Shown: positions 33,001 through 60,000 of the stretch, in pieces
Numbering within the stretch: position 1 is the stretch's first letter
How the letters are laid out: each line of letters opens with the position of its first letter
Source of the DNA: Callorhinchus milii
Taxonomy: Eukaryota
Length of the DNA: 64,000 nt
Assembly (NCBI RefSeq): GCF_018977255.1
Contig: NW_024704756.1
Location: forward strand, 2,790,001 to 2,854,000
Reading direction: 5' to 3'
Position numbers: made by a program

Positions 33001-36000
33001 ACAGAGCAGTTGCACAGAGACAAAAGGAGACGGGCTCTCTGAATGGCATGTTGAGGGATGCACAGTTACAGAAGACAACCAACCGATCACTTTACAGCAT
33101 AACCAGCCGGCTAAGTCTCATATTCCATACACAACGTTCCTGAGGGGAAAAATCATCTAGAGGCTGGTGAAATGTCCAGTGAAAAGCTTGATGTGGTGAT
33201 CATTGGAGGAGGGATATCAGGTTAGTTTTTGTGCTAAGTTTCATGTATCGTTTCCCAGCTTTTGAGCACAACAGCGAGAAGGAACCTGAGTTAATTCAAG
33301 AGACTCTGGATGTAGGAACACCATGGGATTTGTGAATGAATGTGAATGAGGAATCATGTTTTTTTATGAAATTAAGATGAAAGGAGTAGATCAGGATAAT
33401 AATAATAATAATAATAATAATAATCCTTGCATTTGATATAGCGCTTTTCACGTCAGGAGGACGTCCCAAAGCGCTTCACAGAACACACTGTAAAGTGAAT
33501 TGACTGTATATTTGTGGGCGAACGCGGCAGCCAATTGCGCACAGCAATGTCCCAAAAACAGTCGTAGATTGAAAATGACCAATTTATTATTGTTTTGGGT
33601 TTTTTGGAGGGATTATTATTAGGCGTGTGGAGTAAGGAAACTTGCCCAAGGTTTCGCCCTCTGCCTGGAATTGAACTCAGATCTCTCACTTGCAAAGCGA
33701 GTGCTCTAACCACTGAGCTACAGGACTCCACTGAGCTACAGGATCCATTAGTCTGAATCAATGTCAACAAATATTTCCGGTCTCCAGAACAAAGTAGTTG
33801 GAAACAATAGGAGATTTTAAAAATATTTCTAAGGATGTTTGCTATTGCAAATAATATTAACACAGTGAGGTGCATCAGCCCTGAATTAGAAAGTAGATTG
33901 ATTCTTTGGAAGCTCTGCTCTTTGCTCTCTGCCCCACCAACCCACCCCCAACACACACAATGTGCTATGGGGTACATTATTTGTATGTTTTCCTGTTTGA
34001 ATAATTTGTATGTTTTCGCCCACAAAACGCACAGTCGATCCACTTTACAGTGTTTTCCTGTTGAACGCTTTGAGATGTCTCAATGAGATGATTAAGCGCT
34101 GTATCAAATGCAAGGATTATTATATTATTATTAAGAGAAGGTGCTGTAAGCAGTGTTCCTGGTGCCAAGTGATACAGAATGATAGTTACTTGGTTTGTGT
34201 ATTAATCAAAGCCATATGTGATTCAGCTTTCAAAATACTTTAGACCTTCAGAGGCACTTTCCGGAGGGTAATAAATCCTCCAAAAAAAATGTCACTCAAT
34301 CCACGACTTTGTGGAACACTGTGTCCACAATTGGCTGCCGCGTTTCGGCCACAAAATACACAGTCAATTCACTTTACAGTATATTCTGTGAAGCACTTTG
34401 AAATGTCTCAATGATATTATAAGGCGCTATATCAAATGCAAGTATTATTATTGGGCCTCTTCTTCAAGTCACTCCTCCAACTGTATAATCATTGCTTCAT
34501 TTTTAAAAGGATATCCTGTTATATTTAGATTGCCGCTCAGTATGTCATAGGTTCCCCTTGAGCTGCACATCTTTTAAACTTATAAATATAATAATAGCTC
34601 TCTGACCTGCTGACTCCTTACCAACCTGCCCGCTCCCTCCATTCAGTGGTCTGCTCCATGTCTCCCGCCCGACCTGCCCTACCATCAGTGACCGGGCTTT
34701 CAGCCTCTCTGCCCCCACACTCTGGAACTCCATCCTACGGTCCCTTCGCCTTGCTTCCTCCCTTGCTTCCTTCAAGGCCGGTCTCAAGACCCTTCTCTTC
34801 GATCGTGCCTTCGGTCGCCCTCCCACCTCTCTGCCTTCCCTTACCCCTCCCCCACCTCTCCCCCATACTCGGATTCTGACCCCTGACTGTTCCCGACGTG
34901 AAAGGCGCTCTATAAATGTAATTTTGTTGTTGTAATAATCCTTATATTTGGTACATGGCTTTTCACGTCGGGAGGACATCCCAAATTTAATGTAAAGTGT
35001 AGTGACTGTTTTGTAGGCGATTGCTGCAGCCATCGTTTGCACAGCAATGTCCCACAAACCATTGAAAGAGTAACCAATTTTTATTTGGAGATTCTTGGCC
35101 AGGATACCGGGAGAAACTCCCTTCTCTTTTCGAATAGTGTTATGGGATCTTTGACATCCACCTAAATAAGCAGTTGGGGCTTTGGTTTAACATCTCATCT
35201 GAAGGACGGCACCTCCAACATTGTAGACATCCCTTCCCTCCTTCCCTGCACCCCCAACCTAGACCTGTATTGGATTGTTAGCTGGGACCTTGTGATTCTT
35301 GGGGCTTGAACCCACAAGCTTCTGGTTCAGAGGCGAGAATGCTACCAACTGAATCAAGCTGACACACAAACATGCAAAGATGTTCTCAAACGATTGTTGA
35401 ATTTCCTTGTCGATGTTTAGATCCTTTCTCTCCCAATCAGCCCACACTGCATCCAGTTCCTTTGTCCCTATGGGTGGGCAGGTAACCTGCTTTCTCCTCA
35501 ACAATATTGGTGTTGATTTGGCCACTTCCGTGGGAAATATATAATTTTATTAGGATAGAAGCAAAGTAAAATCAAGAAATAATGCTTAGATGACTCCAAA
35601 CTTAGGGGTGGGGGGTTGAAAGCCTCCAGATTCTATGATAATGGGAGTCTTAGAGCTTCACAATTTAAGGTACCAAGAAAGAATCGTTAGCGTAGGAGGC
35701 AGGGCGATGATTTTGATTTCAGTACTGAGGATCCAGGAAGGGGGAAAGGTACCTATTTCAGAGAAAGTACAAATAATCTAATAAAAAATTACACTTAGGT
35801 AGCACCTTTCATGTCAGAAAGACTTCCAAAGCGCTTAACAGTACTGGCTGGACACCCAAGCTGGGGGTGGGAGCCAAGGGATGTTGGGAGGGGAAACATG
35901 ATGCAAGGAACTTGAAGGAGGTGAGGGAGGGAGGGAGCTATTTGGAGGGACTCTGGGATGGAGTGAGGGCAGAATAGCTGATTTGGGTGCTTGTGAGAGG

Positions 36001-57000: not shown

Positions 57001-60000
57001 GTTTAGGTGGGAGGACAAGCGGTGGAGGAGGATAGCGTGGTCGACCGTATCGAATGCTGCCGATAGGTCGAGGAGGACGAGGAGGCAGAGGGAGCCCTGG
57101 TCACAGATGGTCAGGATGTCATTGGTGACCTTGACCAGGGCAGTTTCTGTGCTATGGGCAGCACGGAAACCCGACTGAAGGGGTTCGAATAGTGAATGGT
57201 TGGAGAGGAAAGAGCGCAGCTGGGAGGCGACAACTCCTTCCAGGACCTTGGACAGGAAGGGGAGGTTGGAGATGGGCCGGTAGCTTGATAGCTGCGACCA
57301 TCAAGGGAGGGTTTTTTTAAGGTGGGAGTGATGGTGGCAGTTTTTAAGGGAATGGGAACAGAGCCAGAGGAGAGGGACAGGTTGACGATGTCTGTGATAT
57401 GTGGGGCAAGGAGGTGGAGCTGGGAGATAAGGAGTGGAGTGGGGATGGGGTCAAGGGAGCAGGTGGTGGGTTTCAGGGATAGGATGAGTTTGGTGACAGA
57501 GGGTGGGGAAACGGGTACGAAGGTGTGTAGGGGAGGATGGGTAGGAGTCGGAGTGTGGGAGGGAAGGGGTGGGGGTGGGTGGATGTTGGAGGGGAAGTGA
57601 CCGCGGAGCGAATTCCCTTGATTTTGGATTCAAGGAAATCCAGCATCTCCTCGCAGTGAAGGTTGGAGGAGATGACCTGCGCGGGGTGGCGGGGGGGACG
57701 GAGGAGTTGGGATGTGGTAGAGAACAGTAGCCTGGGGTTGTCCTTCGCCTCCAGGATTATCCTGGAGTAGAAGGACGATTTGGCCGAGGCTAGAGTGGAG
57801 CGGTAGATTTTGAGGAGGTCCAGCCAGATTTGTCGGTGGACCATTAGACCAGATTTGACCCAGGTGCGTTCAGCGGCCCGCACCTGGCTCTTCAGTGAGC
57901 GGAGGTGGGTGGTGAACCACGGGGAGGAGCGAGAGTAGGAGACAGTACGGGAGGTGATAGGGGCAAGAGTGTCAAGTGTGGAGGAGAGGGTGTTGTGGAG
58001 GAGGGTGAGAGCAGAAGAGGGGTCGGTGAGGGTTGAAGGCCAGAGGGAGAGGAGTTCAGAGGACTCCAAGGCAGCGGTACAGTACTAAACTGCACAGAAT
58101 CCTGCTGTTATCTGCGTTGACTGAAAGTTTAGTGGGTTTGTTTATGATTTACTCTGAGCAGAACCTTGTAGCCAAATAGACACTTGCATCAAATACTGTA
58201 TTATTATAAATGCAGTCTGTTTGTAATATTCATCCAGCCTTTATTCACATAGAAAGAGATGATATTTACCCTGTGACACTGTATCATTAGGTGGGTGTAA
58301 TAGAGAGAAAGATATATCAGAATTCTAATGGAGCTCAGGTATGTAACACAGTTAGAATTGAGCGTATTGTAATGAGAGTCAGGTGTTTAACACAAAGAAT
58401 TGTCACAGAGCAGTACATTTAATTCATATAATTGAGTTATGATAGGGCTCAGGTCTGTAATACTATTCTTCCACATTATGGGAGAAGCACCTACTGTTCT
58501 AACAGTATTATAAAGAGGATGGAGATGTGTTTCCTGGTATGTAAGCAGCCAACGACTCACAGAGCTTCAGGATATATTGTGGAACAGGAAGTATTAATAA
58601 TAATAGTCCTTGCATTTGATTTAGAGCCTTATCACGTCGTTGAGATATCTCAAAGCGCTGCACAGAAAGTACTGTTAAGTATATTACAATAATCAAAATT
58701 ACAATGACATAAAATGACTTTTGTGCAGCACCTTTCACATCAGGAAGACATCCCAAGCGCTGGAACTGTGATTATACTATAGTGCCCTGGGACGCTACCC
58801 TGTGTGAGGGGGCGCTATACAAATACAAGTTGTTGTTGTTGTAAGGTGAATTGACGGTGTATTTTGTGGGCAAAATATACTTAAATACGTTTTAAAATAT
58901 ACCTTCAAAAATGAAAAGTACTAAAACGTGCCGTTTATTTTTTCTGCAGGAGGTTCCGAGCCGCCCCTTCAGCCCCACTTTGTGGGAGAGGCACTTGCCC
59001 TCTGTGCCGGGTTTCCTGCTGCTGCTGGGCCTCACCACGTGTCTGTCACTGGCCGGGCTGGTGCTCACCGGGAGAGGCCTTCGGGCCCAGAGCTGAGATC
59101 TGTCCTGCTCCCTGTCGCATCTTTGCAATGGATTGATGTGTACTGCGTTAGCATCTCCTGTTAGACCTCACTGTAGGTGATAATGTTGCGGTTAGGATCA
59201 GAGACTGGTGTGAGCCAGTGTATAAATCAGAACAAGCAAGCACATGTGCCTTGTTGTCATTTGTACGTACCTCGGACTGACCACAGACAATCCCATAATG
59301 TTGCAAACCACAGGCTAGGCAATTTGCTCTAGCCCCTGAATGTCCTGGCTTGCACTGGTACTCAGCAGAACGATGCAAGACAGTCAGGCACTGGCGCTGT
59401 GATTAGCAGGACACACTGTGGGGAATATAGGGACGCAATGTGATGAGTGGTGGGAGCGCTGTTGCAGGAAATACACATTCACTTATTTGAGACTATTTGT
59501 CAAACTTTGAGCTGGGAGGTTGCTTTAATACTTAACACTAAGATTCAGGGGTCCAGCTGTATAATTCTATGATTCACAGCCAGCCTGGATCATTGGCCGG
59601 ACTTGGAAAGACAGACAAGTCACTGGGGGTAGGGAATCCTCGCACTCAGCTCCTGTTAACCTTGCAAGCCAAAGCCCTAACAGGTAGGGTGGTCCTAGCT
59701 GGACAAGCAGCAGGAAAGCTTGCCGGACACACTAAGGTTTAATACTAAAATTGCTACACAAGAATTTGAAGGAAAGAAATATTTCTCAAGGTCCAAAAAA
59801 AAGATTCAGACACAATGTAGAAAGCAAATAATATATTGAAATACAGCTTTGATCTTACAATAAATTACATTCTAAAGTGCTGGTAAGAAATTGCACATTG
59901 TTTAAGCTAATTTGCAGTTTCTATTTGTGGTTACACACTGCAGTGATCTCAGTAAAGTCAGGTCTAACAGAACCCCCTTCAAAAGCAATCGTAATAGGGT

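What the first reader, a model, noticed from the sequence alone, without database searches (positions are those of the whole stretch)
33172..59096. Intact monoamine oxidase in the FUNDC2-CMC4-BRCC3 block: candidate third vertebrate MAO lineage (WGD ohnolog), not MAOA/MAOB
Seen: a complete 15-exon, 519 aa MAO directly downstream of BRCC3 and followed by a GPR34-like gene. Known: human MAOA/MAOB lie on Xp11 near CASK/GPR34, NDP, EFHC2 and FUNDC1, while FUNDC2-CMC4-BRCC3-VBP1 lie on Xq28 with no MAO. Inference: FUNDC2+MAO+GPR34-like here mirrors FUNDC1+MAO+GPR34, so this is probably the sister copy from whole-genome duplication, lost from the mammalian block. I recall that a separate MAO clade (called MAO C or MAO F) has been reported in non-tetrapod jawed vertebrates. 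This gene may belong to it, so it may not be wholly new.
Basis: partly seen in the sequence, partly recalled or inferred. Interest (0 to 1): 0.75.

Follow-up and report, generated by a model that had tools for sequence, protein, structure and literature searches.

The report
Elephant shark MAO F gene
This is an intact copy of monoamine oxidase F, a third vertebrate amine-degrading enzyme lineage that fishes keep and land vertebrates lost; the lineage was already described in 2024-2025, so the find is real but not new.

Summary
A 15-exon gene runs from the ATG at 33172 to the stop at 59096. All 14 introns are GT-AG, and the exons sum to 1560 nt, or 519 codons. It lies after a FUN14-family gene, CMC4 and BRCC3, and before a GPR34-family receptor on the other strand.

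The window is Callorhinchus milii. A public model of this gene, UniProt A0A4W3GXL3, matches the exons letter for letter. In a careful ML tree that model falls in a 100/100 clade with the second MAO copies of sharks, rays, coelacanth, bichirs, sturgeon, gar and tarpon. It lies apart from the MAO A/B copies of those groups, and forcing it among them is rejected (p-AU 0.033).

This clade, with its CMC4-BRCC3 flank, is MAO F of Merello Oyarzun et al. 2025 (PMC11833248), called MAO C in the preprint. The catalytic residues, the human MAO A-type Phe/Ile gating pair and a C-terminal membrane anchor are all present.

An origin by whole-genome duplication is plausible. I found it stated in none of the texts I searched, and it is not proven here.

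The parts
33172..33220 (+). MAO F exon 1 (start codon; start of the GxGxxG FAD-binding motif)
   Evidence: First ATG of the frame, donor GT. Mean identity 67% to shark and ray MAO F.
39234..39328 (+). MAO F exon 2
   Evidence: AG/GT. Pfam Amino_oxidase 1.3e-09 and NAD_binding_8. 100% match to P0002.
39940..40077 (+). MAO F exon 3
   Evidence: AG/GT. 90% identical to shark and ray MAO F against 64% to their MAO A/B.
43213..43317 (+). MAO F exon 4
   Evidence: AG/GT; per-exon identities.
44462..44553 (+). MAO F exon 5
   Evidence: The MAO-like one of 12 AG...GT open candidates of 80-104 nt between exons 4 and 6. 100% match to P0002.
45442..45583 (+). MAO F exon 6 (holds the Phe aligned with human MAO A Phe208)
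   Evidence: PDB search: MAO A chains 6e-22 to 2e-21, MAO B 6e-19 and weaker. Phe.
46084..46233 (+). MAO F exon 7
   Evidence: AG/GT. The least conserved exon, 53% identical to shark and ray MAO F.
46751..46910 (+). MAO F exon 8 (holds the Lys aligned with human MAO A Lys305)
   Evidence: PDB search 5.9e-18. Pfam Amino_oxidase 3.8e-09. 100% to P0002.
47881..47977 (+). MAO F exon 9 (holds the Ile aligned with human MAO A Ile335)
   Evidence: PDB search 8e-12 to MAO A, 6.5e-09 to MAO B. Ile.
48956..49009 (+). MAO F exon 10 (missing from the public model P0002)
   Evidence: AG/GT. 79% identical to shark and ray MAO F. P0002 reads on into the intron here.
52146..52203 (+). MAO F exon 11
   Evidence: AG/GT.
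52617..52714 (+). MAO F exon 12 (SGGCY: the Cys that binds FAD, plus the first cage Tyr)
   Evidence: PDB search 2e-13, with Cys and Tyr aligned to human MAO A 406 and 407.
55061..55172 (+). MAO F exon 13 (second cage Tyr)
   Evidence: PDB search 2e-15, with Tyr aligned to human MAO A 444. Pfam Amino_oxidase 1.1e-09.
55709..55771 (+). MAO F exon 14 (missing from P0002)
   Evidence: AG/GT, 21 codons. 67% identical to shark and ray MAO F against 38% to their MAO A/B.
58950..59096 (+). MAO F exon 15 with the C-terminal membrane anchor and the stop codon (missing from P0002)
   Evidence: Acceptor AG. The only 19-residue stretch of the gene with a Kyte-Doolittle mean above 1.6, at 2.22.
14828..18274 (+). 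FUN14-family gene, FUNDC2 by position. Coding pieces lie within the ORFs 14828-15028, 15876-15980, 17034-17231 and 18170-18274.
   Evidence: Motif scan and ORFs. Pfam FUN14 in 3 of 4 ORFs, 2 of them above the cut-off. I did not fix exact exon ends.
22427..23721 (-). CMC4, two coding exons (about 23665-23721 and about 22427-22570)
   Evidence: Pfam CMC4 in 2 of 2 ORFs. PDB 1hp8 CMC4 at 1.7e-07.
25501..30789 (+). BRCC3 (BRCC36), head to head with CMC4. Its last coding exon ends about 2.4 kb before the MAO start codon.
   Evidence: ORFs. Pfam JAB twice and BRCC36_C. PDB BRCC36 chains at 2e-17.
61213..62244 (-). GPR34-family receptor, single exon, 344 codons, tail to tail with the MAO gene
   Evidence: PDB: human GPR34 245 bits against 184 for P2Y14. 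Pfam 7tm_1 at 1.2e-46. 100% to the C. milii protein 'Probable GPR34' and 62-72% to shark and ray 'GPR34 like'.
4089..4172 (+). mir-221/222-family microRNA hairpin, about 10 kb before the FUN14 gene. It may belong to the same duplicated block.
   Evidence: Rfam RF00651 at 74.5 bits, cut-off 46.6. Fold -36.9 kcal/mol, z -6.6, 0 of 200 shuffles as good.

Best explanation
The gene is the elephant shark (Callorhinchus milii) orthologue of monoamine oxidase F.

Inferred function: a flavoenzyme held in the mitochondrial outer membrane by a C-terminal helix. It oxidises monoamines such as serotonin, dopamine and tyramine to imines, which hydrolyse to aldehydes. Oxygen re-oxidises the covalently bound FAD and yields hydrogen peroxide.

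Shown here:
- an intact 15-exon reading frame;
- membership of the MAO F clade;
- the CMC4-BRCC3 flank;
- the FAD-binding Cys, both cage Tyr, the flavin-edge Lys, a Phe/Ile gating pair as in human MAO A, and one hydrophobic tail segment.

Inferred: activity, substrate range and mitochondrial location, taken from the tarpon MAO F tested in PMC11833248.

Also inferred, at about 0.55-0.65: MAO F and MAO A/B are the two copies left by a whole-genome duplication before the jawed vertebrate radiation. This window would be the Xq28-type block and the mammalian MAOA/MAOB region its sister block.
For: - Gene model.
- Species and identity with a public model: 410 of 465 residues of P0002 (UniProt A0A4W3GXL3_CALMI) are exact matches to the window's exon peptides. 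The other 55 are intron read-through or split codons.
- Tree of 40 named proteins, chosen from 131 stored, with four molluscs as outgroup: MAO F clade 100/100, window proxy plus four elasmobranch copies 99/96. Hemitrygon, Latimeria, Lepisosteus and Anguilla each have one copy in this clade and one outside it.
- AU test against placing the gene with non-F vertebrate MAOs: 34.8 lnL worse, p 0.033.
- Exon by exon: 75.8% identity to shark and ray MAO F against 64.3% to their MAO A/B, higher in 14 of 15 exons.
- Catalytic residues. Tail anchor.
- Flanks.
- Published definition of MAO F, with the CMC4-BRCC3 flank, mitochondrial location and MAO A-like kinetics: PMC11833248, abstract and sections 6 and 8 part 1.
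- For the duplication: FUNDC1 and FUNDC2 are strict ohnologs in paralogous blocks (PMC5526904 passages). The window also holds members of the mir-221/222 and GPR34 families. Their human members lie near MAOA/MAOB; those positions are recalled, and GPR82 beside MAO A is in PMC11833248 section 5.
Against: - By raw identity the exons are no closer to bony-fish MAO F (67.3%) than to bony-fish MAO A/B (66.7%), and exon 1 is closer to shark and ray MAO A/B. The assignment therefore rests on the tree and on the cartilaginous-fish copies.
- The AU p-value is only modestly below 0.05, and I named the group after seeing a quick tree.
- In my careful tree the non-F MAOs are not one clade and the deep order is unresolved, with 52-57% bootstrap. 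The tree does not itself show F as sister to all A/B.
- The tree used a public protein model as a stand-in, not the spliced window protein.
- The 3' neighbours GABRA3/GABRB4 named for bony fish are not in the window.
- I have no expression data and no enzyme data for this species.
- The window's branch is 1.6-2.6 times longer than those of the elasmobranch copies. That could mean some relaxation of constraint.
- For the duplication: no tree of FUNDC, and the GPR34 tree is uninformative.
Confidence: 0.88

Rival explanations
1. MAO F arose by a small local or segmental duplication in an early jawed vertebrate and one copy later moved next to BRCC3. It would then not be a whole-genome-duplication copy. 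The gene would still be MAO F; only its origin differs.
For: - The paper that defines MAO F speaks only of 'a duplication event'. Its main text never mentions genome duplication, in either version.
- The GPR34-family tree fits a single orthologous lineage about as well as two paralogues.
- If the receptor here is the orthologue of tetrapod GPR34, both MAO lineages would sit beside the same gene, as expected after a local duplication.
Against: - FUNDC1 and FUNDC2 are strict ohnologs lying in paralogous blocks.
- The window's gene order FUNDC-CMC4-BRCC3 is the human Xq28 order.
- Bony-fish MAO F has Xq28-type genes on both sides. CMC4/BRCC3 and GABRA3 as flanks come; the human location of GABRA3 is recalled.
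- The lamprey has one copy outside both lineages. That fits a duplication on the jawed-vertebrate stem.
Confidence: 0.25
2. The gene is the MAO A/B orthologue of this species, simply moved next to BRCC3.
For: - Exon 1 is closer to shark and ray MAO A/B, 75% against 67%.
- I could not show a second MAO in this genome.
- Every one of the five exons searched in the PDB is nearest to MAO A, but the PDB holds no MAO F.
Against: - MAO F clade 100/100, with the window proxy inside it at 99/96.
- AU test p 0.033.
- 14 of 15 exons favour MAO F of cartilaginous fishes.
- The same flank is published for MAO F of other cartilaginous fishes.
Confidence: 0.03
3. The gene is MAO F but is decaying or has changed function in chimaeras: an intact frame that no longer works as a monoamine oxidase.
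For: - The end branch is 0.30 against 0.11-0.19 for the elasmobranch copies measured from the shared node.
- The gating residue differs from every other MAO F examined.
Against: - No stop codon or frameshift in 519 codons, and 14 of 14 introns are canonical.
- All six functional positions checked are kept.
- The neighbouring GPR34-family gene shows a similarly longer branch in this species, so the rate may be general rather than special to this gene.
Confidence: 0.05

Closest known systems
MAO F (Merello Oyarzun et al. 2025, Genome Biol Evol, PMC11833248; 'MAO C' in the bioRxiv preprint 10.1101/2024.08.20.608864)
   Same: - Same clade. It holds the Megalops cyprinoides '-like' protein of the species they tested, and the gar, coelacanth, shark and ray second copies.
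- Same 5' flank, CMC4 and BRCC3.
- Same MAO hallmarks: FAD Cys, Tyr-Tyr cage, Lys and a C-terminal helix.
- Phe at the first gating position.
   Different: - The second gating residue is Ile here. It is Met in tarpon MAO F according to the paper, Met in 9 of 9 ray-finned MAO F rows, and Leu in 4 of 4 elasmobranch rows and in coelacanth.
- The 3' neighbour within the window is a GPR34-family gene, not GABRA3/GABRB4.
- I could not see whether C. milii is among the paper's species. The list is in a supplementary table, which is closed, and the main text names no chimaera.
Human MAO A (PDB 2Z5X, 2BXR) and rat MAO A (1O5W)
   Same: - Best PDB match for each of the 5 exons searched.
- Lys305, Cys406, Tyr407, Tyr444 and the Phe208/Ile335 gating pair are all identical.
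- As I recall them, the 13 internal exons have the same lengths as in human MAOA (95, 138, 105, 92, 142, 150, 160, 97, 54, 58, 98, 112, 63 nt). This recollection was not checked by any search.
   Different: A different lineage: tetrapod MAOs fall outside the MAO F clade. A different genomic block: GPR82 and NDP are the flanks in tetrapods (PMC11833248 section 5).
MAO A/B of non-tetrapod jawed vertebrates (the single 'mao' of zebrafish and other fishes)
   Same: Same enzyme family and hallmarks. It coexists with MAO F in Hemitrygon, Latimeria, Lepisosteus and Anguilla.
   Different: The window's exons are 64.3% identical to shark and ray MAO A/B against 75.8% to their MAO F. It is a separate clade with a different flank.
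Human MAO B (PDB 1GOS and others)
   Same: Same fold family and flavin site. Matched by all 5 exons searched.
   Different: Ranked below MAO A in all 5 exons. The paper gives the MAO B gating pair as Ile199/Tyr326; the window has Phe/Ile.

Membership tests
MAO F | [quoted passage not shown] | tested here: met
   Careful ML tree: clade 100/100, window proxy inside it at 99/96. The AU test rejects the alternative at p 0.033. The test used the public model P0002, not the joined window protein.
MAO F | 5' flank of CMC4 and BRCC3 | tested here: met
   CMC4 (-) at about 22.4-23.7 kb and BRCC3 (+) at about 25.5-30.8 kb, directly upstream.
MAO F | 3' flank of GABRA3 and GABRB4 (bony fish; 'partially conserved' in cartilaginous fish) | tested here: inconclusive
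   The next gene is a GPR34-family receptor, and the window ends 1.7 kb beyond it.
MAO F | Coexists with a separate MAO A/B gene in the same genome | not testable with these tools
   No vertebrate genome collection was on hand. C. milii appeared only once among the 120 listed of 377 hits. Coexistence is shown for four other species.
Flavin monoamine oxidase (MAO proper) | N-terminal GxGxxG dinucleotide-binding motif and the Amino_oxidase domain | tested here: met
   The motif is read across the exon 1/2 junction. Pfam Amino_oxidase in 6 of 10 exon ORFs, 3 of them above the cut-off.
Flavin monoamine oxidase (MAO proper) | SGGCY with the FAD-linked Cys, the Tyr-Tyr aromatic cage and the flavin-edge Lys | tested here: met
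   Aligned with human MAO A Cys406, Tyr407, Tyr444 and Lys305. Their roles are as described in PMC11833248 section 8.
Flavin monoamine oxidase (MAO proper) | C-terminal transmembrane helix (outer mitochondrial membrane anchor) | tested here: met
   One 19-residue stretch in exon 15 with a Kyte-Doolittle mean of 2.22; no other exon exceeds 1.16. The targeting itself was not tested.
Tetrapod MAO A or MAO B | Groups with tetrapod MAOs and lies between GPR82 and NDP | tested here: not met
   It lies outside the tetrapod rows, and its flanks are BRCC3 and a GPR34-family gene.
Whole-genome-duplication (ohnolog) pair MAO F / MAO A/B | The two genes lie in paralogous blocks that share several other duplicated gene pairs | tested here: inconclusive
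   FUNDC1/FUNDC2 are strict ohnologs (PMC5526904). The FUNDC gene here is FUNDC2 by position only. The GPR34-family tree is uninformative. The mir-221/222-family hairpin is a lead.
Whole-genome-duplication (ohnolog) pair MAO F / MAO A/B | The two blocks descend from paralogous chromosomes of one ancestral linkage group | not testable with these tools
   This needs chromosome-scale vertebrate and amphioxus assemblies.

The most novel reading that the evidence does not exclude
MAO F and MAO A/B are the two surviving copies of one gene after the whole-genome duplication on the jawed-vertebrate stem.

This 62-kb elephant shark stretch would then preserve, in compact form, the sister of the human Xp11.3-11.4 block. 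It carries four families in the same relative order: a mir-221/222-family hairpin, a FUNDC gene, an MAO and a GPR34-family gene. Mammals would have kept only FUNDC2 of these four on the Xq28 side.

Neither version of the MAO F paper mentions genome duplication in its main text. No paper in the library holds MAOA, MAOB and 'ohnolog' together.
Probability: 0.55. Interest if true: 0.35.

Novelty: already known. Interest (0 to 1): 0.2.

Why it matters
MAO enzymes set the levels of serotonin, dopamine and noradrenaline and are drug targets. Fishes, including laboratory and aquaculture species, carry a second and different MAO lineage, which matters for reading drug and behaviour studies in them. 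That point is already in print.

This window adds three small things:
- A complete gene model for a chimaera, where the public UniProt model lacks four exons.
- The Met gating residue noted in tarpon MAO F is a ray-finned-fish trait rather than a mark of the whole lineage.
- A compact set of neighbours that makes an origin by genome duplication directly testable.

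Tried and rejected
Exons were searched one by one and the public model P0002 stood in for the gene in the trees.
- First quick tree: with the unaltered P0002 the window had a long branch of 0.52, caused partly by that model's intron read-through. I repeated it with those 55 residues gapped.
- FUNDC1 or FUNDC2: the Atlas gave no usable hit for a FUNDC exon. No protein search was left to fetch FUNDC1/FUNDC2 references, so this question was settled by position only.
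- GPR34-family tree (42 of 120 listed hits, quick method, unrooted): it gives ray-finned fishes, tetrapods, and coelacanth plus cartilaginous fishes as three groups. No species appears twice, so it cannot separate orthologue from paralogue.
- Second microRNA hairpin: a relaxed Rfam scan of 1-9000 found no partner beside the mir-221-family hit.
- Unnamed protein hits (sources lgn, ena, jgi without a name) were left out of every comparison.
The collections that were open hold no vertebrate genome.

Full report
**What is there.** On the + strand a gene of 15 exons runs from the first ATG of its frame at 33172 to a stop codon ending at 59096. I read fourteen exons directly from the open frames. 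Exon 5 (44462-44553) was the MAO-like one of 12 open AG...GT candidates between exons 4 and 6. All 14 introns are GT-AG, and the exons add up to 1560 nt, which is 519 codons and a stop. As I recall them, the 13 internal exons have the same lengths as in human MAOA; no call checked that recollection.

Exons were searched singly, and a public database protein stood in for the gene where a full-length row was needed.

**Is it an MAO, and whose?**
- Of 10 exon ORFs, 6 hit Pfam Amino_oxidase at E <= 1, and 3 of those passed the curated cut-off.
- Five exons searched singly against the PDB matched human and rat MAO A and human MAO B at E 8e-12 to 6e-22. MAO A ranked first each time.
- Exon 8 searched against the large protein set gave 18 hits among 23 candidates. 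One was 100% identical: UniProt A0A4W3GXL3 of Callorhinchus milii (P0002, 465 aa).
- tblastn of P0002 on the window gave 11 pieces at the exon positions.
- 410 of P0002's 465 residues are exact matches to the window's exon peptides. The other 55 are intron read-through at three places plus split codons.

So the window is elephant shark. The public model lacks exons 1, 10, 14 and 15.

**Which MAO lineage?** Exon 6 brought in 377 hits, of which the best 120 were listed. From the 131 stored MAO proteins I took 40. All are named and near full length, and they cover cartilaginous fishes, coelacanth, ray-finned fishes, amphibians and sauropsids, with four molluscs as outgroup. Unnamed hits were left out.
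- The careful ML tree gives a 100/100 clade of 15 rows. It holds the window proxy, four elasmobranch '-like' proteins (99/96 with the proxy), the shorter coelacanth protein, two bichirs, sturgeon, gar, bowfin, eel, tarpon and two bony-tongues.
- Hemitrygon, Latimeria, Lepisosteus and Anguilla each have a second protein outside this clade, among the ordinary fish MAO and the tetrapod MAOs.
- Holding the window proxy with all non-F vertebrate MAOs costs 34.8 log-likelihood units, p-AU 0.033. I named that group after seeing a quick tree, so the p-value is somewhat generous.
- Exon by exon, the window is 75.8% identical to shark and ray members of the clade and 64.3% to shark and ray MAO A/B. It is higher in 14 of 15 exons; exon 1 goes the other way.

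Against this:
- Identity to bony-fish members of the two lineages is the same, 67.3 against 66.7%.
- In my tree the non-F MAOs are not one clade and the deep nodes have only 52-57% bootstrap.

**Comparison with what is known.** The clade is in print.
- Merello Oyarzun et al. [quoted passage not shown] I read the abstract, sections 5, 6, 8 part 1 and 12, and searched passages. MAO F is sister to MAO A + MAO B + MAO A/B. It is flanked 5' by CMC4 and BRCC3, with that flank kept in cartilaginous fish, and it was lost in the tetrapod ancestor.
- The bioRxiv version calls the same clade MAO C (listing, passage).
- Whether C. milii is among their species I could not see. The list is in a closed supplement, and the main text names no chimaera.

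**Surroundings.**

| Position | Strand | Gene | Evidence |
|---|---|---|---|
| about 14.9-18.3 kb | + | FUN14-family gene | Pfam FUN14 in 3 of 4 ORFs |
| about 22.4-23.7 kb | - | CMC4 | Pfam CMC4 in 2 of 2 ORFs; PDB 1hp8 at 1.7e-07 |
| about 25.5-30.8 kb | + | BRCC3 | JAB and BRCC36_C domains; PDB BRCC36 at 2e-17 |
| 61213-62244 | - | GPR34-family receptor, 344 codons | Human GPR34 245 bits against 184 for P2Y14; 100% to a C. milii 'Probable GPR34'; 62-72% to shark and ray 'GPR34 like' |

- Order and strands of the first three match the human Xq28 order F8-FUNDC2-CMC4/MTCP1-BRCC3. There CMC4 and BRCC3 are also head to head (PMC7537572 passages).
- In Pristis and in Huso the GPR34-family protein and the MAO F protein list the same longest-contig length. 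That suggests the linkage is old.

**How it most likely works.**
- The residues aligned with human MAO A Lys305, Cys406, Tyr407 and Tyr444 are kept. The paper describes these as the oxygen-site Lys, the FAD-linked Cys and the aromatic cage.
- The gating pair is Phe/Ile, as in human MAO A. The paper reports Phe/Met for tarpon MAO F. In my alignment Met is found in 9 of 9 ray-finned MAO F rows, Leu in 4 of 4 elasmobranch rows and in coelacanth, and Ile only here.
- Exon 15 holds the only strongly hydrophobic 19-residue stretch, with a Kyte-Doolittle mean of 2.22. It lies where the MAO tail anchor lies.
- Activity, an MAO A-like inhibitor profile and mitochondrial location are inferred from the tarpon enzyme. 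They are not shown for this species.
- The window's branch (0.30) is 1.6-2.6 times longer than the paths to the elasmobranch copies. The neighbouring receptor gene shows a similar excess, so I do not read this as decay.

In favour:
- FUNDC1 and FUNDC2 are recorded as strict ohnologs within paralogous Xp11/Xq28 clusters (PMC5526904 passages).
- Bony-fish MAO F has Xq28-type genes on both sides (the human position of GABRA3 is recalled).
- The lamprey has a single copy outside both lineages.
- Rfam finds a mir-221/222-family hairpin at 4089-4172, at 74.5 bits, folding at -36.9 kcal/mol with z -6.6. Human miR-221/222 lie at Xp11.3: 107 papers hold the three terms, of which I saw the listing only. 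Their position relative to FUNDC1 is recalled.
- The window thus holds mir-221/222, FUNDC, MAO and GPR34 family members in the relative order that I recall for the human Xp11 block, with CMC4-BRCC3 in between.

Open:
- I could not place the FUNDC gene by a tree.
- The GPR34-family tree cannot tell orthologue from paralogue.
- No chromosome-scale comparison was possible.

I found no statement of a genome-duplication origin in the main text of either version of the MAO F paper or in Goulty et al. 2023. No paper in the library holds MAOA, MAOB and 'ohnolog' together. Supplements were not visible.

**Verdict.** The thing itself is already known as MAO F. What is left is a modest, testable extension on its origin and a better gene model for one species.

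Noticed in passing
window 4089-4172 (+): A microRNA hairpin of the mir-221/222 family: Rfam RF00651 at 74.5 bits against a cut-off of 46.6, fold -36.9 kcal/mol, z -6.6. It lies about 10 kb upstream of the FUN14-family gene. The human family members lie on the MAOA/MAOB side of the X chromosome, so this may be a further member of the duplicated block. No partner hairpin was found in 1-9000.
   Followed up: partly
window 33172-59096 against protein P0002: The public UniProt model of this gene (A0A4W3GXL3_CALMI, 465 aa) lacks exons 1, 10, 14 and 15 and reads into introns at three places. Only 410 of its 465 residues match the window's exons.
   Followed up: yes
alignment of 40 MAO proteins: The second gating residue (human MAO A Ile335) is Met in 9 of 9 ray-finned MAO F, Leu in 4 of 4 elasmobranch MAO F and in coelacanth MAO F, and Ile in the elephant shark. 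The Met noted for tarpon MAO F is therefore not a mark of the whole lineage.
   Followed up: partly
window 56653-57300 (-), in MAO intron 14; also 6840-7445 (+): Reverse-transcriptase ORF fragments of a LINE-type retroelement. Pfam RVT_1 at 3.3e-16 for the first; 7e-04 and below the cut-off for the second. They lie in opposite orientations.
   Followed up: partly
window 33661-33723 (-) and 50315-50381 (-), plus about a dozen fragments: tRNA-like heads (Rfam tRNA at 40.1 and 34.5 bits) of a SINE-type repeat. The two copies lie in MAO introns 1 and 10 and are about 83% alike. blastn finds 15 and 8 matching pieces across the window.
   Followed up: partly
window 10481-11756, 9359-9711, 24658-25007: Long purine-rich and GT-rich minisatellites: a 28-bp unit x 45 copies, 15 bp x 22 and 18 bp x 20. 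The third lies just before the CMC4/BRCC3 shared promoter region.
   Followed up: no
window 63050-63362: Two perfect tandem copies of a 155-bp unit, 100% identical.
   Followed up: no
protein P0001: A 1047-residue 'amine oxidase' of the centipede Strigamia maritima is 70% identical to exon 8. That is more than the teleost MAOs (58-62%) or the molluscs (57-61%). It is odd for an arthropod and could be contamination or a fused model.
   Followed up: no
proteins P0003/P0140 (Pristis) and P0024/P0205 (Huso): In both species the MAO F protein and the GPR34-family protein list the same longest-contig length (103,001,046 and 28,702,704). The two genes therefore probably share a chromosome-scale contig outside chimaeras too.
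   Followed up: no
trees: Both the MAO F gene and the GPR34-family gene of the elephant shark have longer branches than their elasmobranch orthologues: 0.30 against 0.11-0.19, and 0.46 against about 0.29-0.36.
   Followed up: no
window 9100: A single N. It was left as it is.
   Followed up: no
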